Positions 2,254 to 62,488 of a stretch of 64,000 nt of DNA are shown here, piece by piece. Numbering within the stretch: the stretch's first letter is position 1; each line of letters opens with the position of its first letter. Made by a program: the position numbers and the translations under genes. The notes under the pieces were generated by a model, which was not told where the DNA came from, did no database searches, and saw only the letters and a list, made by a program, of their open reading frames with translations. This DNA is from Escherichia coli O157:H7 (GTDB lineage: Bacteria; Pseudomonadota; Gammaproteobacteria; Enterobacterales; Enterobacteriaceae): assembly GCF_013167455.1 (NCBI RefSeq), contig NZ_CP038328.1; one strand, 5' to 3'.

Positions 2254-3201
2254 ATGGAAAACAGTGACGATATCCGTTTGATTGTGAAGATTGCCCAACT
2301 CTATTACGAACAGGATATGACGCAGGCGCAAATCGCGCGCGAACTGGGTATTTACCGCACCAACATCAGCCGCTTGCTTAAACGAGGCCGCGATCAGGGA
2401 ATTGTCACCATCGCCATCAACTATGACTACAACGAAAATCTCTGGCTGGAGCAGCAACTGAAGCAAAAGTTTGGCCTGAAAGACGTTGTGGTGGTGTCGG
2501 GAAATGATGAGGATGAAGAGACTCAACTGGCGATGATGGGGTTACACGGCGCGCAACTGCTGGATCGCTTGCTGGAGCCTGGCGATATTGTCGGTTTTTC
2601 CTGGGGTCGCGCGGTGAGCGCACTGGTTGAAAACTTGCCGCAGGCGGGGCAATCGCGGCAGTTAATCTGCGTACCAATTATTGGCGGACCGTCCGGTAAA
2701 CTCGAAAGCCGCTATCACGTAAACACATTAACCTACAGCGCGGCAGCGAAGCTGAAAGGGGAATCGCATCTCGCGGATTTTCCGGCTCTACTGGATAACC
2801 CATTAATTCGTAATGGGATCATGCAGTCTCAGCACTTTAAAACCATCTCTGCCTACTGGGATAATCTGGATGTCGCCCTGGTGGGAATTGGCTCACCGGC
2901 CATTCGCGACGGCGCTAACTGGCATGCGTTTTATGGTGGTGAAGAGAGTGACGACCTGAATGCCCGCCAGGTTGCTGGCGATATTTGCTCGCGCTTTTTT
3001 GATATTCACGGCGAAATGGTTGAAACGAATATGAGCGAAAAAACACTCTCTATCGAAATGAATAAATTAAAGCAGGCACGATATTCCATTGGCATTGCCA
3101 TGAGTGAAGAAAAATACAGCGGAATTATTGGTGCACTGCGTGGAAAATATATTAATTGTCTGGTAACGAATAGCAGCACAGCTGAACTATTACTGAAATA
3201 A
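2254..3201 (+). CDS. sorC: SorC-family transcriptional regulator of the L-sorbose operon
   Basis: Start chosen at internal ATG 2254 (MENSDDIRLIVKIAQLYYEQDMTQAQIARELGI...) preceded by AGGAGG at 2243-2248; N-terminal HTH plus sugar-phosphate-binding domain typical of SorC/DeoR. Confidence 0.85.
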   Translation: MENSDDIRLIVKIAQLYYEQDMTQAQIARELGIYRTNISRLLKRGRDQGIVTIAINYDYNENLWLEQQLKQKFGLKDVVVVSGNDEDEETQLAMMGLHGAQLLDRLLEPGDIVGFSWGRAVSALVENLPQAGQSRQLICVPIIGGPSGKLESRYHVNTLTYSAAAKLKGESHLADFPALLDNPLIRNGIMQSQHFKTISAYWDNLDVALVGIGSPAIRDGANWHAFYGGEESDDLNARQVAGDICSRFFDIHGEMVETNMSEKTLSIEMNKLKQARYSIGIAMSEEKYSGIIGALRGKYINCLVTNSSTAELLLK

Positions 3202-3270
3202 AAATCTTCCCGATGTTTATCGTAATAAAAATTACGGCGGGTCCCTATTATCTAAAATCAGGAGTCTGTT

Positions 3271-4077
3271 ATGCAAACGTGGTTAAATTTGCAGGATAAA
3301 ATCATTATCGTCACCGGCGGCGCATCCGGTATTGGTCTGGCGATTGTAGAGGAATTATTAGCACAAGGCGCAAACGTACAGATGGTAGATATTCACGGTG
3401 GCGATGGACAATATGAAGGTCATAAAGGCTATCAGTTTTGGCCGACCGATATTTCCAGCGCCAAAGAGGTAAATCATACGGTAGCGGAAATTATCCAGCG
3501 TTTTGGTCGCATCGACGGTCTGGTCAATAACGCCGGGGTCAATTTCCCGCGTCTGCTGGTCGATGAGAAAGCGCCTGCCGGGCAGTATGAACTCAACGAA
3601 GCTGCATTCGAAAAAATGGTCAATATCAACCAGAAAGGCGTTTTTCTGATGTCGCAGGCGGTGGCGCGACAGATGGTCAAACAACATGATGGCGTGATTG
3701 TGAATGTTTCCTCAGAAAGTGGGCTGGAAGGCTCAGAAGGCCAAAGCTGTTACGCCGCTACCAAAGCCGCGCTCAATAGCTTCACGCGCTCCTGGTCGAA
3801 AGAGCTGGGTAAACACGGTATCCGTGTGGTCGGTATCGCGCCGGGGATTCTGGAAAAAACCGGGCTACGCACGCCGGAATATGAAGAGGCGCTGGCGTGG
3901 ACGCGCAATATCACCGTCGAGCAGCTGCGTGAAGGCTATACCAAAAACGCCATTCCTATTGGGCGCGCCGGAAGATTAGCAGAAATCGCTGATTTTGTTT
4001 GTTATCTGCTGTCTGAACGCGCCAGCTATATCACCGGAGTAACCACTAACATTGCGGGCGGCAAAACGCGCGGCTAA
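3271..4077 (+). CDS. sorD: short-chain dehydrogenase, D-glucitol(sorbitol)-6-phosphate dehydrogenase of sor operon
   Basis: 268-aa ORF with SDR Rossmann motif TGGASGIG and catalytic YxxxK (SCYAATKAA); RBS AGGAG upstream. Confidence 0.85.
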   Translation: MQTWLNLQDKIIIVTGGASGIGLAIVEELLAQGANVQMVDIHGGDGQYEGHKGYQFWPTDISSAKEVNHTVAEIIQRFGRIDGLVNNAGVNFPRLLVDEKAPAGQYELNEAAFEKMVNINQKGVFLMSQAVARQMVKQHDGVIVNVSSESGLEGSEGQSCYAATKAALNSFTRSWSKELGKHGIRVVGIAPGILEKTGLRTPEYEEALAWTRNITVEQLREGYTKNAIPIGRAGRLAEIADFVCYLLSERASYITGVTTNIAGGKTRG

Positions 4078-4086
4078 GGAGGCTTT

Positions 4087-4494
4087 ATGGTCAACGCCAT
4101 TTTTTGTGCCCACGGCAAATTAGCTTGCGCCATGCTGGAATCGGTTCAGATGGTTTACGGCAACGCCAATGTTGAAGCCGTTGAATTTGTGCCCGGTGAA
4201 AACGCCGGAGACATCGTAGCAAAGCTGGAAAAATTAGTAAGCATTCACAATCAAAATGAGTGGCTGATTGCCGTGGATTTACAGTGCGGCAGCCCGTGGA
4301 ATGCGGCAGCGATGCTTGCGATGCGCAATCCTCGTCTGCGGGTAATCAGCGGACTTTCTCTGCCGCTGGCGCTCGAACTGGTTGATAACCAGGACAGCAT
4401 GAATGTTGATGAACTGTGTGAACACCTGACGCAAATCGCAAAGCAAACCTGCGTTGTCTGGAAACAACTGGCAACGACAGAGGAGGATTTCTGA
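4087..4494 (+). CDS. sorF: PTS mannose/sorbose-family EIIA component
   Basis: 135-aa ORF, EIIA-Man family size and context; RBS AAGGAGG at 4077-4083; stop overlaps sorB start by 1 nt. Confidence 0.82.
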   Translation: MVNAIFCAHGKLACAMLESVQMVYGNANVEAVEFVPGENAGDIVAKLEKLVSIHNQNEWLIAVDLQCGSPWNAAAMLAMRNPRLRVISGLSLPLALELVDNQDSMNVDELCEHLTQIAKQTCVVWKQLATTEEDF

Positions 4495-4988
4495 TGAACA
4501 TTACGCTCGCCCGCATTGATGACCGCCTGATCCACGGTCAGGTCACTACCGTCTGGTCGAAAGTGGCTAACGCCCAGCGCATTATTATCTGCAATGACGA
4601 AGTTTATAACGATGAAGTTCGCCGGACATTATTGCGTCAGGCTGCGCCACCGGGAATGAAGGTTAACGTGGTCAATATTGAAAAAGCCGTCGCGGTTTAT
4701 CACAACCCGCAATATCAGGACGAAACCGTTTTTTATCTTTTCACTCGCCCACAGGATGCCTTAGCGATGGTTCGCCAGGGGGTAAAAATAGGCACCCTGA
4801 ATATTGGCGGCATGGCCTGGCGGCCCGGTAAAAAACAGTTAACCAAAGCGGTTTCATTAGATGATGATGATATTAACGCATTTCATGAGTTAAATAATCT
4901 AGGCGTCATACTGGATTTACGCGTCGTAGCGTCAGATCCCTCAATCAATATTATCTACAAAATAAACGAACAGTTAATCGCAAATTAA
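4494..4988 (+). CDS. sorB: PTS mannose/sorbose-family EIIB component
   Basis: 164-aa ORF MNITLARIDDRLIHGQVTT... (EIIB-Man signature with phosphorylatable His in RLIHGQV); RBS AGGAGGA upstream. Confidence 0.88.
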   Translation: MNITLARIDDRLIHGQVTTVWSKVANAQRIIICNDEVYNDEVRRTLLRQAAPPGMKVNVVNIEKAVAVYHNPQYQDETVFYLFTRPQDALAMVRQGVKIGTLNIGGMAWRPGKKQLTKAVSLDDDDINAFHELNNLGVILDLRVVASDPSINIIYKINEQLIAN

Positions 4989-5053
4989 ATAATAGCGCCT
5001 GTGTACATATGCTTTAACAGGCAGGGATGACGACACTTAAAAGGTGACAAATC

Positions 5054-5851
5054 ATGGAAATAAGTACCCTACAAATCATTGCTATATTTCTTTTTTCCTG
5101 TATTGCCGGAATGGGCAGCGTGCTGGATGAATTTCAGACTCATCGCCCGTTAATTGCCTGTACGGTGATTGGTTTAATTCTCGGTGATTTAAAAACCGGA
5201 ATAATACTCGGTGGTACGCTGGAATTGATAGCTCTCGGCTGGATGAACGTCGGCGCGGCGCAATCTCCGGATTCTGCACTCGCCAGCATAATCTCCGCCA
5301 TTCTGGTTATCGTTGGTCAGCAAAGCATCGCCACCGGAATCGCCATCGCGTTGCCTGTGGCTGCGGCAGGCCAGGTGCTGACGGTGTTTGCCCGTACCAT
5401 CACCGTAGTGTTCCAGCACGCGGCGGATAAAGCAGCGGAAGAAGCACGGTTTCGCACTCTCGATATTCTGCATGTCTCCGCGCTTGGCGTGCAGGCGCTG
5501 CGCGTCGCCATTCCGGCACTGATTGTCTCGCTGTTCGTCAGCGCCGATATGGTGAGCAATATGTTAAACGCCATTCCCGAATTTGTGACCCGAGGTCTGC
5601 AAATTGCTGGCGGTTTTATCGTGGTAGTCGGTTACGCCATGGTGCTACGTATGATGGGCGTGAAATATTTGATGCCTTTCTTTTTCCTCGGTTTCCTCGC
5701 AGGTGGCTACCTCGATCTCAGTCTGCTGGCGTTCGGTGGCGTCGGCGTGATCATGGCCCTGGTCTACATCCAGCTAAATCCACAGTGGCGTAAAGCTGAA
5801 CCTCAACTCCTGGCCCCCGCTTCCACCGCCCTTGACCAACTTGACGATTAA
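5054..5851 (+). CDS. sorA: PTS mannose/sorbose-family EIIC membrane component
   Basis: 265-aa hydrophobic ORF, multiple TM segments, EIIC-Man family context. Confidence 0.85.
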   Translation: MEISTLQIIAIFLFSCIAGMGSVLDEFQTHRPLIACTVIGLILGDLKTGIILGGTLELIALGWMNVGAAQSPDSALASIISAILVIVGQQSIATGIAIALPVAAAGQVLTVFARTITVVFQHAADKAAEEARFRTLDILHVSALGVQALRVAIPALIVSLFVSADMVSNMLNAIPEFVTRGLQIAGGFIVVVGYAMVLRMMGVKYLMPFFFLGFLAGGYLDLSLLAFGGVGVIMALVYIQLNPQWRKAEPQLLAPASTALDQLDD

Positions 5852-5861
5852 CGGAGCCATC

Positions 5862-6686
5862 ATGGAACAGAGAAAAATTACACGCGGCGATCTGGTGAGC
5901 ATGTTTCTGCGCTCCAACCTGCAACAGGCGTCCTTTAACTTTGAACGTATTCACGGGCTGGGTTTTTGCTACGACATGATCCCCGCCATCAAGCGACTTT
6001 ACCCAGTAAAAGAGGATCAGGTTGCGGCGCTCAGGCGACACCTGGTGTTCTTTAATACCACGCCAGCCGTATGTGGCCCGGTCATCGGCGTCACTGCCGC
6101 CATGGAAGAGGCGCGGGCCAACGGCGCGGAAATTGATGACGGCACCATTAACGGCATCAAAGTCGGTCTGATGGGACCATTGGCAGGGGTTGGCGATCCA
6201 CTGGTCTGGGGAACGCTGCGCCCGATTACCGCCGCGCTCGGCGCATCGCTGGCGCTGTCTGGCAACATTCTCGGCCCGCTGCTGTTCTTCTTTATTTTCA
6301 ACGCGGTGCGTCTGGCGATGAAGTGGTATGGCCTACAGCTCGGCTTTCGCAAAGGGGTGAATATCGTCAGCGATATGGGCGGGAATGTGCTGCAAAAACT
6401 CACCGAAGGCGCGTCGATTCTCGGACTGTTTGTGATGGGCGTGCTGGTCACCAAATGGACGTCAATCAACGTACCGTTGGTGGTTTCACAAACGCATGCC
6501 GCCGATGGCTCCACCGTCACCATGACCGTGCAGAACATTCTCGATCAACTTTGCCCTGGTTTGCTGGCGCTCGGTCTGACGCTACTGATGGTTCGTCTGC
6601 TCAACAAAAAAATTAACCCGGTATGGCTGATTTTCGCCCTGTTTGGCTTAGGGATTATCGGCAATGCGCTGGGCTTCCTGTCCTGA
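5862..6686 (+). CDS. sorM: PTS mannose/sorbose-family EIID membrane component
   Basis: Start chosen at ATG 5862 (MEQRKITRGDL...) after GGAG; 274 aa, hydrophobic, EIID-Man family. Confidence 0.85.
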   Translation: MEQRKITRGDLVSMFLRSNLQQASFNFERIHGLGFCYDMIPAIKRLYPVKEDQVAALRRHLVFFNTTPAVCGPVIGVTAAMEEARANGAEIDDGTINGIKVGLMGPLAGVGDPLVWGTLRPITAALGASLALSGNILGPLLFFFIFNAVRLAMKWYGLQLGFRKGVNIVSDMGGNVLQKLTEGASILGLFVMGVLVTKWTSINVPLVVSQTHAADGSTVTMTVQNILDQLCPGLLALGLTLLMVRLLNKKINPVWLIFALFGLGIIGNALGFLS

Positions 6687-6737
6687 TTCTTCGCCCCGGC
6701 ACGACTGCCGGGGCCATCGTTCAACATGAGGTGGTTT

Positions 6738-7967
6738 ATGAAAACAACAGCTCTGCGTCTTTATGGTAAACGTGATTTACGCCTGGAAACCTTTGACCTT
6801 CCTGAAATGCAGGAGGATGAAATCCTCGCGACGGTGGTCACTGACAGCCTGTGCCTCTCTTCCTGGAAAGAGGCCAATCTGGGTGAAAACCATAAAAAAG
6901 TACCCGACGATGTGGCGACCAACCCAATCATCATCGGCCACGAGTTTTGCGGCGATATTCTGGCCGTGGGTAAAAAGTGGCAGCACAAATTCCAGCCGGG
7001 TCAGCGTTATGTGATTCAGGCCAACCTGCAACTCCCCGACCGCCCGGACTGCCCCGGCTACTCCTTCCCGTGGGTAGGCGGCGAGGCCACGCATGTGGTT
7101 ATTCCCAACGAGGTCATGGAACAAGATTGCCTGCTGGCATACGACGGCGAAACCTATTTTGAAGGCTCGCTGGTTGAACCGCTTTCCTGCGTGATTGGCG
7201 CGTTCAACGCCAACTATCATCTTCAGGAAGGTAGTTATAACCACACGATGGGGATTCGCCCGCAAGGGCGCATGCTGATCCTCGGCGGCACCGGACCAAT
7301 GGGACTGTTGGCGATTGATTATGCGCTACATGGACCCGTTAACCCGTCGCTGCTCGTCATTACCGATACCGACAACGATAAATTGAGTTATGCGCGCAAG
7401 CACTATCCATCAGAACCGCAAACACTGATTCATTATCTCAATGCCGCCGATGCAGCATTTGATACGCTAATGGCGCTGAGTGGCGGTCACGGCTTCGATG
7501 ATATTTTCGTCTTTGTGCCTAATGAAGGACTGGTGACTCTCGCCTCTTCCTTGCTGGCGACAGATGGTTGCCTGAATTTCTTCGCCGGACCGCAGGATAA
7601 ACATTTCAGCGCGCCAATTAATTTCTACGATGTGCATTATGCATTTACCCACTACGTGGGCACGTCAGGCGGCAATACCGACGACATGCGCGCAGCGGTC
7701 AAATTGATTGAAGAGAAAAAAGTGCAGGCCGCAAAAGTGGTAACACATATTCTTGGGCTGAATGCCGCGGGCGAAACCACGCTTGAATTGCCTGCCGTCG
7801 GCGGCGGCAAAAAGCTGGTGTATACCGGGAAATACCTGCCGCTGACGTCACTCACGCAGATTCAGGATCAAGCACTGGCGGCGATTCTGGCGCGTCATCA
7901 GGGGATCTGGTCCGGTGAGGCGGAGCAATATCTGCTCACTCATGCAGAGGCAATTTCCCATGATTAA
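6738..7967 (+). CDS. sorE: L-sorbose-1-phosphate reductase (zinc-type medium-chain dehydrogenase)
   Basis: Start chosen at ATG 6738 (MKTTALRLYGKRDLRLETF...) after GAGGTGG; 409 aa, MDR fold with GHEFCG motif. Confidence 0.83.
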   Translation: MKTTALRLYGKRDLRLETFDLPEMQEDEILATVVTDSLCLSSWKEANLGENHKKVPDDVATNPIIIGHEFCGDILAVGKKWQHKFQPGQRYVIQANLQLPDRPDCPGYSFPWVGGEATHVVIPNEVMEQDCLLAYDGETYFEGSLVEPLSCVIGAFNANYHLQEGSYNHTMGIRPQGRMLILGGTGPMGLLAIDYALHGPVNPSLLVITDTDNDKLSYARKHYPSEPQTLIHYLNAADAAFDTLMALSGGHGFDDIFVFVPNEGLVTLASSLLATDGCLNFFAGPQDKHFSAPINFYDVHYAFTHYVGTSGGNTDDMRAAVKLIEEKKVQAAKVVTHILGLNAAGETTLELPAVGGGKKLVYTGKYLPLTSLTQIQDQALAAILARHQGIWSGEAEQYLLTHAEAISHD

Positions 7968-8127
7968 TCGCGCTACTTAACTCTGCATGTCGCTGGCTGG
8001 TCACCGCGGCAACTTCGCGACCTGATGTGCGGCTGATTGCTGAAGCGGCCCAATGTGCACGAGAAGGATAAAAAAACATCAGCGCCTTAAGGGGCGCTCA
8101 AATTGGTGGCAAAGTACACATTGTTTA

Positions 8128-8226
8128 TGCCGGATGCGGAATAAAGCCTTATTCGGCCTACATAATCTCGAAAATTCAATATATTGCAGTTATCTGGTAG
8201 GCCTGGTAAGCGTAGCGCATCAGGCA
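8128..8226. repeat. pair of oppositely oriented REP-like palindromic units (BIME-like) downstream of sorE
   Basis: GCCGGATGCGGAATAAAGCCTTATTCGGCCTAC at 8128-8162 and GTAGGCCTGGTAAGCGTAGCGCATCAGGC at 8197-8226. Confidence 0.75.
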
Positions 8227-8349
8227 ATGCTGTGTTTGTCATCAGTCTCAGCGCCCGGTGCAATACGTGACATCGTGAGCCATGTCAGTAAGTGGTTAAA
8301 TTCGCAGTGGTAGCATGCCTTCCGTGATTTCTTACTAACCGGAGAAGTA

Positions 8350-9039
8350 ATGGAACTGCTTTTATTGAGTAACTCGACGCTGCCGGGTAAAGCCTGGCTG
8401 GAACATGCACTGCCGCTGATTGCTGAACAGTTGCAGGGTCGCCGCTCAGCGGTGTTTATCCCTTTCGCTGGCGTAACGCAGACCTGGGATGATTACACAG
8501 CGAAAACGGCTGCGGTTCTCGCTCCGCTGGGTGTTTCTGTCACCGGTATTCATAGCGTTGTCGATCCCGTTGCCGCGATTGAAAATGCGGAAATTGTGAT
8601 TGTCGGCGGCGGTAATACTTTCCAGTTGCTGAAACAGTGCCGCGAGCGCGGGCTGCTGGCTCCAATTACTGACGTGGTTAAACGTGGCGCGCTGTATATT
8701 GGCTGGAGCGCAGGCGCTAACCTTGCTTGCCCAACCATTCGTACCACCAACGATATGCCGATTGTCGATCCGCAAGGTTTCGATGCGCTAAATCTGTTCC
8801 CGTTGCAAATCAACCCGCACTTCACCAACGCGCTGCCGGAAGGCCATAAAGGTGAAACCCGTGAGCAGCGTATTCGCGAACTGCTGGTCGTCGCGCCAGA
8901 ACTGACGATTATTGGTCTACCGGAAGGTAACTGGATCACAGTGAGTAAAGGTCACGCAACGCTGGGTGGCCCGAATACCACCTATGTGTTTAAGGCCGGT
9001 GAAGAAGCGGTTCCGCTGGAAGCTGGTCACCGTTTTTAA
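8350..9039 (+). CDS. pepE: alpha-aspartyl dipeptidase (peptidase E)
   Basis: 229-aa [33 protein letters not shown]... matches PepE. Confidence 0.93.
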
Positions 9040-9046
9040 GTGAATT

Positions 9047-9116
9047 GCCGGATGCATGATCCGGCATCTTGTTCATAGTGCCTGATGCGACGCTTGACGC
9101 GTCTTATCAGGCCTAC
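9047..9116. repeat. hairpin plus REP element between convergent pepE and yjbB
   Basis: GCCGGATGCATGATCCGGC hairpin at 9047-9065, REP unit GCCTGATGCGACGCTTGACGCGTCTTATCAGGCCTAC at 9080-9116. Confidence 0.75.
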
Positions 9117-9129
9117 AGGATTCACAATA

Positions 9130-10761
9130 TTAATACTCGTCCCGTCCCTCATCTTCATCAGGCTGTTCCAGCACACTGTAAGCCACCGAACAAAACAGCG
9201 AGTTCAGACGCTGCATATCTCCCAGTAAGCCTAAATGTAGCGAACTGGTTTCAATGCTTTGCACGTTTTGCTGATGCAGGCGATCGACGTGGGCGTGGGA
9301 ATAGCGGCGATTAAGAATGCGAAAGCGATGCTTGCTGCGGCGCAAACGACGAGCGCTGGTGACATCGCCAGAGAAGAACACCGACATTGCCAGCTTTAAA
9401 TTACTGAGCAATTGCTCATAGAGCGCATCCAGTTCCTTCAAGCCATCAAGCGAAAATGCTCGCCTTGCAGCCAGCGATTTGTCGGCAATTTCACTACTCA
9501 TGCGCTCGACGATATCGGAGGCCTGTTCAAGGTTGAGCGACATTTCGATGATCTCCGCCCAGCGGCGCGACTCTTCTTCTGCCAGTTCCTCTTTTGGCAT
9601 CCGCGCCAGATACAGCTTAATGGCGGTATAGAGAACGTTGATATCATCTGCCAGCTTACGCAGCTCTTTCTCCTGCCTTGGCTCGCCGTGCATCACTTTA
9701 TTCAGCCCTTCCATCATCTGTTCCATGGCGTCGCCAATGCGCAGGGTTTCGCGCGCGGCGTTCGCCAGAGCAAGCGTGGGCGTATCCAGCGCGCTGACAT
9801 CCAGATGTTTAGGCCGTAGCTGGGTATCCAGTTCCGGTTCATCGCGAATAATCGTTTTGCAAAACCGTGCCATCGGGTCAACAAATGGCAGCATGGCCAG
9901 GCAACGTACAAGGTTGTAGAAGACGTGGAAATAGATCACCAGTTCCGCTTTTGGCAATGACAACTTCCCCATTGTCTCTGCCAGCAAATGGACAAACGGC
10001 AGGATAATCAGGCTACCCACCAGCTTAAACAGCAGACTACCCAGCGCGACACGGCGGGCTGCGGCATTGGCGGCACTGTTGTTGAGCATCGCCAGCAGGC
10101 CGGAACCGAGGTTAGCACCAATCACCAGACAGAGCGCCACGGGGAAGGAGATAATGCCTGCGGCGGTCAGAGTCGCGGTCAGCAGTACAGCAGCAAGGCT
10201 GGAGTAGCTGATAATGGCGAACATCGCGCCAATCAGCGCATCCAGCAGAATATCGCCGGTCAGCGAGGCAAAGATCACCTGAACGCCGTTTGCCTGGGTG
10301 ATCGGCGTTACGGCCTGCACAATCAACTCCAGCGCCAGCAAAATCAGCCCAAGACCAATACCGACGCGGCCCAGTTGCCCGGCGCGTGACTGTTTGCGTC
10401 CGAGGAAAAAAATCACGCCGATAAAAATAAGTAACGGTGACAGCCAGGATAAGTCGAAGGTGAGAATACGCGCCATTAGCGCCGTCCCGACATCTGCCCC
10501 CAGCACAATGACCAGAGCCGGTGCGAGGGCTACCAGATCCTGAGCGACGAACGAGGTCACCAGCATGGTGGTGGCATTACTGCTCTGTACCAGTGCGGTA
10601 ACGCCGATCCCCGCGCAAAAGGCGAGCGGCTTTTTTTCGACGCTCCGGCTAAGGACAGTACGCAAACGCGCGCCGAAGACGCGCATTACGCCGGTTCGAA
10701 CAATATGAGTCCCCCAGACCAGCAGGGCGACGGCAGAAAGCAGGTTAAGCAGCGTTAACAC
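9130..10761 (-). CDS. yjbB: Na/Pi-cotransporter-family membrane protein with PhoU-like domains
   Basis: 543-aa ORF, hydrophobic N-terminal half, PhoU-like C-terminal half; conserved position next to metH. Confidence 0.88.
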   Translation of the reverse strand: MLTLLNLLSAVALLVWGTHIVRTGVMRVFGARLRTVLSRSVEKKPLAFCAGIGVTALVQSSNATTMLVTSFVAQDLVALAPALVIVLGADVGTALMARILTFDLSWLSPLLIFIGVIFFLGRKQSRAGQLGRVGIGLGLILLALELIVQAVTPITQANGVQVIFASLTGDILLDALIGAMFAIISYSSLAAVLLTATLTAAGIISFPVALCLVIGANLGSGLLAMLNNSAANAAARRVALGSLLFKLVGSLIILPFVHLLAETMGKLSLPKAELVIYFHVFYNLVRCLAMLPFVDPMARFCKTIIRDEPELDTQLRPKHLDVSALDTPTLALANAARETLRIGDAMEQMMEGLNKVMHGEPRQEKELRKLADDINVLYTAIKLYLARMPKEELAEEESRRWAEIIEMSLNLEQASDIVERMSSEIADKSLAARRAFSLDGLKELDALYEQLLSNLKLAMSVFFSGDVTSARRLRRSKHRFRILNRRYSHAHVDRLHQQNVQSIETSSLHLGLLGDMQRLNSLFCSVAYSVLEQPDEDEGRDEY

Positions 10762-16004: not shown

Positions 16005-19896
<3,892 letters not shown>

Positions 19897-19919
19897 TTAG
19901 CGCCCTCATCAGGAGCAGA

Positions 19920-20065
19920 GAATTGCCGGATGCGGCGTAAACGCCTTATCCAGCCTACGTTCGGCAACGGTTGTAGGCATGATAAGACGCGCAAGCGTCG
20001 CATCAGGCATCGTGCACCGATTGCCGGATGCGGCGTATATGCCTTATCCGGCCTACAGTCAGCAA
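19920..20065. repeat. cluster of three REP units (BIME) in aceK-aceA intergenic region
   Basis: GCCGGATGCGGCGTAAACGCCTTATCCAGCCTAC, inverted GTAGGCATGATAAGACGCGCAAGCGTCGCATCAGGC, and GCCGGATGCGGCGTATATGCCTTATCCGGCCTAC. Confidence 0.85.
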
Positions 20066-20079
20066 CGTTTGTAGGTTGC

Positions 20080-21384
20080 TTAGAACTGCGATTCTTCGGT
20101 GGAGCCAGTCAGCGCGGTAACCGACGACGTGCCGCCCTGAATAATGGTCGTCACTTTATCGAAGTAACCTGTACCCACTTCCTGCTGGTGAGATACGAAG
20201 GTGTAGCCATCTTTCGCGGCGGCGAATTCCGGCTGCTGCACTTTCTCAACATAGTGCTTCATACCCTCGCCCTGGGCATAGGCGTTTGCCAGATCAAACA
20301 TGTTGAACCACATGCTGTGGATACCTGCCAGGGTGATGAACTGGAACTTGTAGCCCATATCCGACAGCTGCTGCTGGAAGCTGGCAATAGTGTTGTCGTC
20401 GAGGTTTTTCTGCCAGTTGAACGACGGCGAGCAGTTATAAGCCAGCAGTTTGCCCGGATATTTCGCGTGGATAGCTTCCGCAAAGCGACGCGCCAGTTCC
20501 AGATCCGGCGTGGAGGTTTCACACCATACCAGGTCAGCATATGGCGCATACGCCAGGCCACGGCTGATCGCTTGCTCAATGCCCGCATGAGTACGGAAGA
20601 AGCCTTCACTGGTACGCTCGCCGGTAATAAATTCGCTGTCATACGGGTCGCAATCGGAGGTGATCAGATCCGCCGCATCAGCATCGGTACGTGCAACCAG
20701 CAGGGTTGGAACGCCCGTCACGTCAGCTGCCAGACGCGCCGCGACCAGTTTCTGAATAGCTTCCTGAGTTGGCACCAAAACTTTGCCGCCCATGTGACCG
20801 CATTTCTTCACTGACGCCAGCTGATCTTCGAAGTGAACTGCCGCTGCACCGGCTTCAATCATCGCTTTCATCAGTTCAAAGGCATTCAGGACACCGCCAA
20901 AACCGGCTTCCGCGTCGGCAACGATCGGCAGGAAGTAATCGACATAGCGCGGATCGCCCGGCTCAATGCCCGCGGACCATTGGATCTGATCCGCACGGCG
21001 GAAAGTGTTGTTGATCCGCTCCACCACAGCTGGCACCGAGTTTGCCGGATAGAGCGACTGATCCGGATACATGCTGGCCGCCAGGTTAGCGTCCGCCGCT
21101 ACCTGCCATCCCGACAGATAGACCGCTTCAATACCCGCTTTCGCCTGTTGCAGCGCCTGACCGCCAGTCAGTGCACCGAGGCTGTTGATGTAGCCTTTTT
21201 TCGACTCGCCATGCAGCAGACGCCACATTTTCGCCGCGCCCAGTTGCGCCAGCGTGCATTCAGGATTGACTGAACCGCGTAATTTCACCACATCTTCCGC
21301 GCTGTATGGGCGAGTAATTCCTTCCCAACGCGGTTGAGTCCACTCTTTCTGTAATTCTTCAATTTGTTGTGTACGGGTTTTCAT
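20080..21384 (-). CDS. aceA: isocitrate lyase
   Basis: Start at internal ATG giving [22 protein letters not shown]... (434 aa) matching AceA. Confidence 0.95.
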
Positions 21385-24369: not shown

Positions 24370-24813
24370 ATGGTTATTAGTATTCGCCGCTCACGGCATG
24401 AGGAAGGGGAGGAACTCGTTGCGATTTGGTGTCGATCTGTCGATGCCACCCACGATTTTTTATCAGCAGAGTATCGGGCCGAGCTGGAAGAGCTGGTTCG
24501 TTCCTTTCTGCCGGAAGCACCGTTGTGGGTCGCGGTTAATGAACGGGATCAGCCGGTTGGGTTTATGTTGTTAAGTGGGCAGCATATGGATGCGCTGTTT
24601 ATCGATCCTGATGTGCGCGGCTGCGGCGTGGGCCGGATGCTGGTGAAGCATGCGCTCTCAATGGCCCCGGAACTGACAACCAATGTTAATGAGCAAAATG
24701 AGCAGGCGGTTGGGTTCTATAAGAAGGTGGGTTTTAAGGTTACGGGACGCTCTGAGGTGGACGATTTGGGGAAACCGTATCCGTTGCTGGATCTGGCGTA
24801 TGTGGGGGAATAA
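24370..24813 (+). CDS. yjaB: GNAT-family N-acetyltransferase YjaB
   Basis: 147-aa ORF with GNAT acetyl-CoA motif (RGCGVGRMLV); RBS AAGGAGAG upstream; conserved position between metA and rrnE. Confidence 0.85.
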   Translation: MVISIRRSRHEEGEELVAIWCRSVDATHDFLSAEYRAELEELVRSFLPEAPLWVAVNERDQPVGFMLLSGQHMDALFIDPDVRGCGVGRMLVKHALSMAPELTTNVNEQNEQAVGFYKKVGFKVTGRSEVDDLGKPYPLLDLAYVGE

Positions 24814-24886
24814 GCTGCCCCCTATCGTGCCTGCGTAAGCTGGATAAAACGCGCCAGCGTCGCATCCGGCATTTTTTTGCACCAAC

Positions 24887-24920
24887 GCAAAAAGGCCATC
24901 CGTCAGGATGGCCTTTCGCT
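24887..24920 (-). terminator. rrnE operon terminator (T1-like)
   Basis: AGGCCATCCGTCAGGATGGCCT hairpin followed on the minus strand by a U-run, immediately 3' of 5S rRNA. Confidence 0.8.
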
Positions 24921-24927
24921 TTATTTG

Positions 24928-25047
24928 ATGCCTGGCAGTTCCCTACTCTCGCATGGGGAGACCCCACACTACCATCGGCGCTACGGCGTTTCACTTCTGA
25001 GTTCGGCATGGGGTCAGGTGGGACCACCGCGCTAAGGCCGCCAGGCA
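24928..25047 (-). rRNA. rrfE: 5S ribosomal RNA
   Basis: Reverse complement matches E. coli 5S rRNA (TGCCTGGCGGCC...GGGAACTGCCAGGCAT), 120 nt. Confidence 0.95.
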
Positions 25048-28044: not shown

Positions 28045-28237
28045 TCACAACCCGAAGATGTTTCTTTCGATTCATCATCGTGTTGCGAAAATTTGAGAGA
28101 CTCACGAACAACTTGCGTTGTTCAGTGTTTCAATTTTCAGCTTGATCCAGATTTTTAAAGAGCAAATATCTCAAACATCACCCGAAGATGAGTTTTGAGA
28201 TATTAAGGTCGGCGACTTTCACTCACAAACCAGCAAG

Positions 28238-56999: not shown

Positions 57000-57055
57000 G
57001 CAAAAAGGCTGGTGACTAAAAAGTCACCAGCCATCAGCCTGATTTCTCAGGCTGC
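57000..57055 (-). terminator. rplL-rpoB intercistronic attenuator hairpins
   Basis: Minus strand after rplL stop: CAGCCTGAGAAATCAGGCTG then GCTGGTGACTTTTTAGTCACCAGCC followed by TTTTTGCGC. Confidence 0.75.
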
Positions 57056-57071
57056 AACCGGAAGGGTTGGC

Positions 57072-62046: not shown

Positions 62047-62122
62047 TGGTGCTGATAGGCAGATTCGAACTGCCGACCTCACCCTTACCAAGGGTGCGCT
62101 CTACCAACTGAGCTATATCAGC
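62047..62122 (-). tRNA. thrT: tRNA-Thr (GGU)
   Basis: Reverse complement GCTGATATAGCTCAGTTGGTAGAGCGCACCCTTGGTAAGGGTGAGGTCGGCAGTTCGAATCTGCCTATCAGCACCA. Confidence 0.95.
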
Positions 62123-62128
62123 ACATCT

Positions 62129-62203
<75 letters not shown>

Positions 62204-62319
62204 ATCCTGGAACTCGGCTACCTGATTTTCATTCTGCACTGAATATCGAGAGAAGCTCTCTTTATTCGAGCCGGTAAGCGAACTTATCGTCTCGGGCTAC
62301 GCCATCGCGTGGCCGAAAT

Positions 62320-62404
<85 letters not shown>

Positions 62405-62412
62405 GGACTTGA

Positions 62413-62488
<76 letters not shown>

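What the first reader, a model, noticed from the sequence alone, without database searches (positions are those of the whole stretch)
19897..20079. REP/BIME cluster in the aceK-aceA spacer and further REP units at 8128-8226, 9080-9116 and 24851-24880
Three REP units in alternating orientation fill the aceK-aceA gap, and similar units sit after sorE, between pepE and yjbB, and after yjaB. They explain several spurious small ORFs and likely stabilise upstream mRNA. They are ordinary for E. coli but are the substrates of RAYT (TnpA-REP) transposases and mark where intergenic rearrangement is most likely.
Basis: partly seen in the sequence, partly recalled or inferred. Interest (0 to 1): 0.15.

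Follow-up and report, generated by a model that had tools for sequence, protein, structure and literature searches.

The report
Ordinary REP/BIME repeats between E. coli genes
The flagged sequences are textbook E. coli REP/BIME palindromic repeats, and the aceA-aceK cluster is a well-known, copy-number-variable BIME-2 and DNA gyrase site, so the finding is correct but ordinary.

Summary
Confirmed and already known. The window is E. coli O157:H7-type DNA. It holds exactly seven REP units at four intergenic sites.

1. aceA-aceK spacer: Y (19924-19958), Z2 (19973-20009) and Y (20022-20056) in alternating orientation, with S and l linkers. This is a BIME-2, 98% identical to the K-12 copy. It scores above threshold for Rfam naRNA4, whose model is a Y-l-Z2 unit.
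2. sorE-pepE: a 99-bp BIME-1 (Y, L linker with an IHF-like site, Z1) at 8128-8226.
4. yjaB-rrf: one REP at 24835-24871, not 24851-24880. Its GTAG is mutated to GTAA and a T7 run follows it.

Only the BIME-2 varies among 5,426 E. coli genomes. Its spacer is 48 bp with no REP in 714 genomes, and 85, 124, 183, 215 or 280 bp (five REPs) in others. E. albertii has 11 units.

Published Topo-seq lists the K-12 aceA-aceK BIME-2 with 8 gyrase cleavage sites. The REPs lack U-tracts. A terminator-like hairpin inside aceK (the AceK-int 3' end) more likely explains the aceA-to-aceK drop in expression. mRNA stabilisation by these REPs is inferred, not shown.

The parts
20022..20056 (-). REP3, Y type. The strand given is the one carrying 5'-GTAG. 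It is the first unit transcribed after the aceA stop codon (20080-20082).
   Evidence: E 4.5e-10; Rfam Y half. RNA hairpin -19.1 kcal/mol, z -3.6.
20010..20021 (.). Head-to-head 'l'-type linker between the Y and Z2 units.
   Evidence: Aligned to the linker of the naRNA4 (Y-l-Z2) consensus. Coordinates.
19973..20009 (+). REP2, Z2 type, inverted relative to its two neighbours.
   Evidence: (E 3.9e-9). Hairpin -14.8 kcal/mol.
19959..19972 (.). Tail-to-tail short 'S' linker (GTTCGGCAACGGTT).
   Evidence: It is part of the 56-nt direct repeat with 98-bp spacing.
19924..19958 (-). REP1, Y type, the last unit before the aceK ribosome-binding site.
   Evidence: E 4.7e-10. Hairpin -18.7 kcal/mol, z -4.0.
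20057..20075 (.). S-like linker (20057-20070) plus a GTAGG stub (20071-20075). This is the remnant of a further Z2 unit, truncated against the aceA stop codon.
   Evidence: Second copy of the 56-nt direct repeat: 20020-20075 versus 19922-19977, 88% identical. Coordinates.
8128..8161 (-). Y-type REP of the BIME-1 downstream of sorE.
   Evidence: E 6.7e-8. Hairpin -12.4 kcal/mol.
8162..8196 (.). Long 'L' linker of the BIME-1, with an IHF-like site ATTCAATATATTG at 8174-8186.
   Evidence: 12 of 13 matches to WATCAANNNNTTR. The whole 111-nt composite recurs at 40 or more places per genome.
8197..8226 (+). Z1-type REP (short form) of the BIME-1.
   Evidence: E 4.9e-5. Hairpin -12.3 kcal/mol.
9079..9116 (-). 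Z2-type REP between the convergent genes pepE and yjbB.
   Evidence: E 1.6e-9. Hairpin -21.3 kcal/mol, z -6.6. Identical in K-12.
9046..9066 (.). Mini-hairpin TGCCGGATGCATGATCCGGCA. This is an internally deleted Y unit without GTAG. Together with the Z2 unit it forms a decayed BIME-2 unit.
   Evidence: The Rfam naRNA4 model aligns 9046-9113 at 47.1 bits, E 7e-7. Hairpin -14.1 kcal/mol. A 69-bp BIME-2 sits at the offset-matched position in Sutormin et al. table DS3; the correspondence is inferred from the coordinate offset, as that row carries no gene label.
24835..24871 (+). Single hybrid REP after yjaB, with a Z2-like centre and a Y-like stem. GTAG is mutated to GTAA. A T7 run follows at 24872-24878.
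   Evidence: E 6.2e-8. Hairpin -16.5 kcal/mol. It occupies the place of yjaA in K-12.
19529..19613 (-). Context, not a REP. This is the AceK-int sRNA region inside aceK, with a terminator-like hairpin (19558-19537) followed by a T run.
   Evidence: 85 of 85 identical to K-12 b4830. Terminator scan. Premature termination in aceK is reported in PMC5435950 and PMC10687069.

Best explanation
These are members of the E. coli REP (palindromic unit) repeat family, arranged in its standard composites. The aceA-aceK spacer carries a BIME-2 with units Y, Z2 and Y, joined by S and l linkers, plus a truncated fourth unit. It amounts to about 1.6 copies of a 98-bp unit and is orthologous to the K-12 element.

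Shown here: sequence identity to the family; hairpin-forming potential; extragenic position; dispersal through the genome; and strong copy-number polymorphism at this one locus.

Shown by others for the K-12 orthologue: it is a DNA gyrase cleavage hot spot in vivo.

Inferred: on the aceBAK mRNA, which is the minus strand here, the three hairpins (about -15 to -19 kcal/mol each, -80 kcal/mol for the whole spacer) have no U-tract. They therefore act as barriers to 3'-to-5' exonucleases and possibly as Rho-dependent attenuators, not as intrinsic terminators. This would protect the aceBA part of the message. The roughly 300-fold lower AceK level would come mainly from the terminator inside aceK and from a weak, partly paired aceK ribosome-binding site.

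Copy number changes by recombination or slippage between the repeated units, possibly helped by the RAYT TnpA-REP.

The other sites are a BIME-1 (a candidate IHF site) at the edge of the sor island, a decayed BIME-2 unit between pepE and yjbB, and a single decaying REP plus T-run that probably ends yjaB transcription.
For: Family identity.
Orthology with K-12 (98%).
Gene context.
Hairpins and whole-spacer fold (z = -4.7).
98-bp direct repeat.
Genomic dispersal: median 19 megablast places per genome and 40 or more for the BIME-1.
Polymorphism: spacers of 48, 85, 124, 182/183, 215 and 280 bp. The no-REP allele is in 714 of 5,426 genomes. There are 11 units in E. albertii and 6 in E. whittamii.
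Stability of the other sites.
Gyrase: table DS3 of PMC6379681 lists the BIME-2 'aceA>-aceK>' at 131 bp, with 8 cleavage sites under ciprofloxacin, 2 with rifampicin plus ciprofloxacin, and 2 with oxolinic acid.
BIME definitions and strain-variable BIME-2 copy number: PMC3333891.
No U-tract terminator in the spacer, but one inside aceK.
Product ratio aceB:aceA:aceK of about 0.3:1:0.003 and premature termination in aceK: PMC5435950.
RBS pairing.
Against: No experiment retrieved here tests mRNA stabilisation or attenuation by the REPs in aceBAK. The literature searches found none.

About 13% of E. coli genomes lack any REP in this spacer, so the REPs are dispensable.

Gyrase data exist for K-12, not for this strain.

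The role of TnpA-REP in vivo is unproven. Strains with and without the gene have similar REP numbers (PMC3333891).
Confidence: 0.93

Rival explanations
1. The aceA-aceK element is a gene for an naRNA4-like nucleoid-associated non-coding RNA. Processed out of aceBAK mRNA, it would bind HU and bridge cruciform DNA.
For: Rfam RF02564 scores 79.7 bits against a gathering score of 59.5, on the transcribed (minus) strand. naRNA4 is itself a Y-l-Z2 unit of the REP325 BIME-2 (PMC4550694).
Against: The match follows automatically from shared Y-l-Z2 composition. A decayed unit at pepE-yjbB also scores 47 bits. The naRNA4 function was shown only for REP325. This locus is absent in 13% of strains. No data show that an RNA is processed from this spacer.
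Confidence: 0.05
2. The hairpins are ordinary locus-specific intrinsic terminators or attenuators that evolved in place. They would not be members of a dispersed repeat family.
For: Many other Enterobacteriaceae, and the E. coli 48-bp allele, have one simple G+C-rich hairpin in this spacer. That suggests some hairpin is favoured here.
Against: The units match REP models and recur 19 to 40 or more times per genome. No U-tract follows the aceA-aceK hairpins. The units are arranged in the canonical BIME-2 order.
Confidence: 0.01
3. The small ORFs overlapping the spacer (for example 19872-20003, 19909-20010, 19979-20074) encode real micro-proteins.
For: Seven ORFs of at least 20 aa overlap the spacer.
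Against: The ORFs lie inside copy-number-variable repeats that are missing altogether in 714 genomes. The longest is an antisense shadow of aceA. No SD-plus-start context was seen.
Confidence: 0.01

Closest known systems
E. coli K-12 aceA-aceK BIME-2, listed as BIME-2 'aceA>-aceK>' in Sutormin et al. 2019 table DS3
   Same: Orthologous locus at 98% identity, with the same Y-Z2-Y order and linkers. Spacer is 182 bp against 183 bp here. It is a gyrase cleavage hot spot with 8 sites.
   Different: A few substitutions. The apical stem of REP3 reads GGCATATACGCC here and GGCGTTCACGCC in K-12. The stub next to aceA is CCTAC here and CAAC in K-12.
REP325 / naRNA4 (Rfam RF02564; Qian et al. 2015, PMC4550694)
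   Same: A BIME-2 built of Y-l-Z2 units. The unit at 20053-19976 aligns end to end with the 77-nt model.
   Different: REP325 has six tandem units between yjdM and yjdN and has experimental HU and nucleoid data. This locus has 1.6 units inside the aceBAK operon and no such data.
BIME-1 / RIP-RIB elements (Y, L linker with IHF site, Z1)
   Same: The element at 8128-8226 is 99 bp, with Y and Z1 units tail to tail around a 35-bp linker carrying a 12/13 IHF consensus. The BIME-1 entries visible in the retrieved excerpt of table DS3 are mostly about 96-98 bp. Its length is constant among strains.
   Different: This copy lies in the sor-operon island, which K-12 lacks. Both REPs are somewhat diverged from consensus.
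malE-malF and other intra-operon REP mRNA stabilisers (Newbury, Higgins and co-workers, 1987; from my own knowledge)
   Same: REP hairpins between a highly expressed upstream gene and a poorly expressed downstream gene of one operon.
   Different: For aceBAK, the retrieved literature attributes the downshift to premature termination within aceK; an additional contribution from weak aceK translation is from my own recollection of Chung et al. 1993. A REP contribution has not been shown.

Membership tests
REP / palindromic unit (PU) | 30-40-nt imperfect palindrome with an internal mismatch or bulge in the stem | tested here: met
   All seven units are 30-38 nt and fold into hairpins with an interior loop, at -12 to -21 kcal/mol.
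REP / palindromic unit (PU) | Conserved GTAG tetranucleotide 5' to the foot of the palindrome | tested here: met
   Present in six of seven units. The yjaB unit has GTAA and the 9046-9066 mini-hairpin has none, so both are decayed copies.
REP / palindromic unit (PU) | Extragenic location and high copy number dispersed over the genome | tested here: met
   All units lie between annotated genes. A query holding the BIME-2 hits a median of 19 places per genome. The BIME-1 query hits 40 or more, which is the cap.
REP / palindromic unit (PU) | Match to the Y, Z1 or Z2 consensus | tested here: met
   The Y and Z2 units align to the Rfam naRNA4 consensus, which is Y-l-Z2. The Z1 assignment of 8197-8226 rests on its short form, my recollection of the consensus and its BIME-1 context.
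BIME-2 | Alternating Y and Z2 units with a short S linker (tail to tail) and an s, l or r linker (head to head), in tandem | tested here: met
   Order is Y, l, Z2, S, Y, S-like linker, stub. Definition from PMC3333891.
BIME-2 | Copy number varies at a given locus among strains | tested here: met
   0, 1, 2, 3, 4 and 5 units in E. coli. 2 to 11 units in other Escherichia species.
BIME-2 | Strong DNA gyrase binding and cleavage | not testable with these tools
   Literature for the K-12 orthologue gives 8 ciprofloxacin-induced cleavage sites (PMC6379681, table DS3).
BIME-1 (RIP/RIB) | One Y and one Z1 unit separated by a long conserved L linker carrying an IHF site, always a single pair | tested here: met
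   Y at 8128-8161, L at 8162-8196 with ATTCAATATATTG (12/13), Z1 at 8197-8226. Length is constant in 2,681 genomes. IHF binding itself is not testable here.
naRNA4 (Rfam RF02564) | Score above the family gathering threshold | tested here: met
   79.7 bits against 59.5 at 19976-20053 on the minus strand.
naRNA4 (Rfam RF02564) | Discrete HU-binding RNA that condenses the nucleoid, as defined for the REP325 locus | not testable with these tools
   This is a different locus (aceA-aceK, not yjdM-yjdN). No RNA or HU data were retrieved.
Intrinsic (Rho-independent) terminator | G+C-rich hairpin immediately followed by a U-tract | tested here: not met
   No such site lies in 19897-20079 on either strand. 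By direct reading, the yjaB REP is followed by T7 at 24872-24878, so that one unit could act as a terminator.
RAYT (TnpA-REP) substrate | REP with 5' GTAG and a stem mismatch, next to an inverted REP, cleaved as single-stranded DNA | not testable with these tools
   The sequence requirements are met for the BIME-2 and the BIME-1. Activity is known only in vitro for K-12 substrates (PMC3333891).

The most novel reading that the evidence does not exclude
The aceA-aceK spacer may act as a natural dosage dial. Alleles range from a 48-bp ancestral-type spacer (simple hairpin, canonical AAGGAG Shine-Dalgarno, RBS mostly unpaired) to BIME-2 arrays of 1 to 5 units, and 11 in E. albertii, with a weak and partly paired RBS. 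These alleles could set different AceK:AceA ratios, and hence a different isocitrate branch point, and could differ in local gyrase loading between lineages. A minor variant is that the transcribed Y-l-Z2 unit supplies naRNA4-like RNA when the glyoxylate shunt is induced.
Probability: 0.12. Interest if true: 0.4.

Novelty: already known. Interest (0 to 1): 0.08.

Why it matters
It matters little for discovery. REP and BIME elements have been catalogued in E. coli since the 1980s and 1990s, and this very BIME-2 is listed and mapped as a gyrase site in K-12.

It is useful for annotation in three ways:
- It explains the spurious ORFs in the spacer.
- It warns that an Rfam naRNA4 hit here reflects BIME-2 composition rather than a distinct gene.
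- It flags the aceA-aceK spacer as a hypervariable locus (48-280 bp in E. coli). That could serve as a typing marker, or as a natural allele series for testing what intra-operon REPs do to AceK dosage.

Tried and rejected
- Tandem Repeats Finder found nothing in the window spacer, because there are only 1.6 copies of the 98-bp unit. The repeat finder did recover the 56-nt direct repeat.
- Rfam gave no hit on the BIME-1. I used a distant BLAST instead.
An extended pattern worked.
- Literature searches for direct experiments on the aceBAK REPs found none. Searches for the REP/trans-translation and malE-malF papers were unproductive. Statements on mRNA stabilisation therefore rest on general knowledge.
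- I considered that the length variants of the yjaB-rrf spacer (349-360 bp against 517-529 bp) were REP copy-number changes. I rejected this: the extra 170 bp is an rrn T1 / 5S-remnant / T2 terminator block.
- I considered more REPs elsewhere in the 64 kb. There are none above noise.
- I considered the REPs as intrinsic terminators of aceBA. I rejected this because there is no U-tract.
- I did not make an exact census of each allele class. Only the no-REP allele was counted exactly (714). The other frequencies come from a 39-genome systematic sample.

Full report
**Context.** The window is E. coli DNA of the O157:H7 type. The queried stretches are 100% identical to strain 2017C-4109 and to several O157:H7 chromosomes. 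RefSeq annotation transferred from that strain (window coordinate = locus coordinate - 401) gives:
- sorE 6738-7967 (+)
- pepE 8350-9039 (+)
- yjbB 9130-10761 (-)
- aceK 18160-19896 (-)
- aceA 20080-21384 (-)
- yjaB 24370-24813 (+)
- 5S rRNA 24930-25045 (-)

The flagged interval 19897-20079 is exactly the 183-bp aceA-aceK spacer. It is transcribed on the minus strand as part of aceBAK.

**Anatomy of the aceA-aceK cluster.** Read in the direction of transcription, the order is:

| Element | Coordinates |
|---|---|
| aceA stop codon | 20082-20080 |
| GTAGG/CCTAC stub | 20075-20071 |
| S-like linker | 20070-20057 |
| Y unit (REP3) | 20056-20022 |
| l linker | 20021-20010 |
| Z2 unit (REP2, inverted) | 20009-19973 |
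| S linker | 19972-19959 |
| Y unit (REP1) | 19958-19924 |
| 27 nt holding the aceK ribosome-binding site | 19923-19897 |
| aceK ATG | starts at 19896 |

A 56-nt direct repeat, 19922-19977 against 20020-20075, is 88% identical with 98-bp spacing. The cluster is therefore about 1.6 copies of a 98-bp Y-S-Z2-l unit, truncated against aceA. This meets the definition of BIME-2 given in PMC3333891. K-12 has the same three units at 98% identity.

**The other three sites.**
- 8128-8226 is not just 'similar units'. It is one 99-bp BIME-1: Y (8128-8161), a 35-bp L linker with an IHF-like site ATTCAATATATTG (12 of 13 to WATCAANNNNTTR), and Z1 (8197-8226). The whole composite recurs at 40 or more places per genome, and every genome has a copy covering at least 80% of it.
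- 9079-9116 is a Z2 unit. Rfam aligns 9046-9113 at 47 bits. A 69-bp BIME-2 entry in Sutormin's table sits at the coordinate-offset-matched position; that row has no gene label, so the match is inferred. The site is identical in K-12.
- The yjaB unit lies at 24835-24871, not 24851-24880. It has a Z2-like centre with Y-like arms. Its GTAG has mutated to GTAA, and a T7 run follows directly (read from the sequence). It plausibly serves as the yjaB terminator.

Only the BIME-2 varies. In 5,426 complete E. coli genomes the aceA-aceK spacer takes these forms:

| Spacer length | REP content |
|---|---|
| 48 bp | none |
| 85 bp | one Y |
| 124 bp | Y plus a Z2/Y chimera |
| 182/183 bp | three units (K-12 and this window) |
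| 215 bp | four units |
| 280 bp | five units |

The 48-bp allele was counted exactly and is present in 714 genomes, or 13%. In a systematic sample of 39 spanning loci, the classes numbered 19 (five units), 8 (three), 2 (four), 4 (two), 1 (one) and 5 (none).

The other sites behave differently:
- The BIME-1 has constant length in the 2,681 genomes that carry the sor operon.
- The pepE-yjbB spacer is constant in 5,311 genomes.
- The yjaB-rrf length variants come from an extra rrn terminator block, not from REP number.

Two of these stable elements sit at presence/absence junctions. The BIME-1 lies 33 nt inside the edge of the sor island, which K-12 lacks. The yjaB REP lies where K-12 has yjaA.

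**Outside E. coli.** A scan of one genome per species, using a degenerate pattern for the aceA C-terminus, gave 62 usable aceA-aceK spacers from Enterobacteriaceae.
- Enterobacter, Phytobacter, Lelliottia, Atlantibacter, Intestinirhabdus and others have 48-55-bp spacers with one simple G+C-rich hairpin and a good Shine-Dalgarno sequence. The E. coli 48-bp allele (…TAAGGAGAGGCG-ATG) resembles these.
- Citrobacter, Salmonella, Klebsiella and Kluyvera have spacers of about 100 bp with a tail-to-tail pair of their own REP types.
- Escherichia species have Y/Z2 arrays: 2 units in MOD1-EC7003, 4 in E1V33, 6 in E. whittamii and 11 in E. albertii. The E. albertii spacer is 542 bp, with a 91-bp period repeated 5.6 times.

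Some hairpin is therefore always present in this spacer, and different repeat families have colonised it. Within E. coli, the no-REP allele (L008) and a four-unit allele (L005) share a 99.8% identical aceK flank. They differ at 7 positions in the last 58 nt of aceA. This points to a local recombination patch rather than ancient divergence.

**How it most likely works.**

*Shown by others for the K-12 orthologue.* Table DS3 of Sutormin et al. lists the BIME-2 'aceA>-aceK>' at 131 bp. It records 8 gyrase cleavage sites with ciprofloxacin, 2 with rifampicin plus ciprofloxacin and 2 with oxolinic acid. This places it among the 13 BIME-2s with at least 3 sites. Most BIME-1 entries visible in the retrieved excerpt have none (PMC6379681). 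At the DNA level the element is therefore a transcription-independent strong gyrase site.

*Inferred at the RNA level.* No hairpin in the spacer is followed by a U-tract, so the REPs are not intrinsic terminators. A terminator-like hairpin plus T-run lies inside aceK at 19558-19537. It coincides with the 3' end of the AceK-int sRNA, which is 85 of 85 identical to K-12 b4830 at 19529-19613. Transcriptome papers report premature termination within aceK and product ratios of about 0.3:1:0.003 for aceB:aceA:aceK (PMC5435950; PMC10687069).

The most likely division of labour is as follows. The intragenic terminator and a weak aceK RBS set the low AceK level. That RBS has GAGGG as its Shine-Dalgarno sequence, with an unpaired probability of 0.28-0.39 in REP alleles against 0.62 with AAGGAG in the 48-bp allele. 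The REP hairpins then act as barriers to 3'-to-5' exonucleases, preserving the aceBA part of the message. They may also add Rho-dependent attenuation, as reviewed in PMC2817692. The exonuclease-barrier step comes from general REP knowledge (Newbury, Higgins and co-workers, 1987; my own knowledge). It has not been tested for aceBAK in anything I could retrieve.

*Origin and dynamics.* TnpA-REP binds and cleaves single-stranded REP/BIME in vitro, needs GTAG and the stem mismatch, and can recombine BIMEs. O157:H7 carries a REPtron (PMC3333891). Its role in vivo is unproven.

**The naRNA4 hit.** The score is above Rfam's threshold, but this follows from shared Y-l-Z2 composition. Even the decayed pepE-yjbB unit scores 47 bits. 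The HU and nucleoid function was shown only for REP325 (PMC4550694). I treat the hit as a composition match, not as evidence of a distinct gene.

**Verdict.** The element is already known in kind, and this particular locus is already catalogued. The corrections are the coordinates of the yjaB unit, the BIME-1 nature of 8128-8226, the overlooked decayed Y unit at 9046-9066, the finding that only the BIME-2 varies in copy number, and the likelihood that the terminator inside aceK, rather than the REPs, accounts for most of the aceA-to-aceK downshift. Interest is low. The only mildly new angle is the natural allele series from 0 to 5 units (11 in E. albertii), which could be used to test what intra-operon REPs do to AceK dosage.

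Noticed in passing
window 24814-24929 (yjaB-rrf spacer); L001 5161-5680: yjaA, the Clermont phylotyping marker that lies between rrfE and yjaB in K-12, is absent here. A 116-bp spacer takes its place, with one REP, a T7 run and an rrnB-T2-like terminator hairpin (24891-24916). 2,814 of 5,426 genomes share the yjaA-less layout. Some of them carry an extra block of about 170 bp (T1 / 5S remnant / T2).
   Followed up: partly
window ~2254-8260: The sorbose (sor) operon is an island of about 6 kb between rluF and pepE that K-12 lacks. Homology to K-12 resumes at about 8260-8269, 33 nt beyond the BIME-1. About half of the complete genomes (2,681) carry it.
   Followed up: partly
window 19529-19613 (-): The AceK-int sRNA region inside aceK is 85 of 85 identical to K-12 b4830. 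It ends at a terminator-like hairpin (19558-19537) followed by a T run, and probably accounts for the reported premature termination in aceK.
   Followed up: partly
window 8081-8098: A G+C-rich hairpin downstream of sorE has its T-run on the minus strand (AGCGCCCCTTAAGGCGCT GATGTTTTTTT), yet no minus-strand gene lies upstream. On the plus strand it has only an upstream A-run.
   Followed up: no
L008 498-545 (E. coli DS566-2) and 713 other genomes: A 48-bp REP-free aceA-aceK spacer has a unique hairpin and a canonical AAGGAG Shine-Dalgarno sequence. It resembles the spacers of Phytobacter and Intestinirhabdus. Differences clustered in the last 58 nt of aceA suggest a local recombination patch.
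   Followed up: partly
L010 4752-5293 (E. albertii); L070 (E. whittamii): The aceA-aceK BIME-2 has expanded to 11 units (542 bp, 91-bp period repeated 5.6 times) in E. albertii and to 6 units (308 bp) in E. whittamii.
   Followed up: partly
L012, L020, L032, L035, L037, L060 and others (aceA-aceK spacers of other genera): Several genera carry hairpins of the form CCCTCTCCC…GGGAGAGGG(TTAGGGTGAGGG) in this spacer. This looks like another dispersed enterobacterial repeat family occupying the same position.
   Followed up: no
window 16005-18191 (+): RefSeq annotates the arpA orthologue between iclR and aceK as the type III effector EspL4 in this strain. K-12 calls it an ankyrin-like regulator.
   Followed up: no
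window 28052-28160, 41788-41888, 47581-47741, 57006-57067, 62050-62488: There are other Rfam hits above threshold: StyR-44 in the rRNA spacer, a TPP riboswitch, sroH, P26 and a cluster of four tRNAs. All are expected for this chromosomal region.
   Followed up: no
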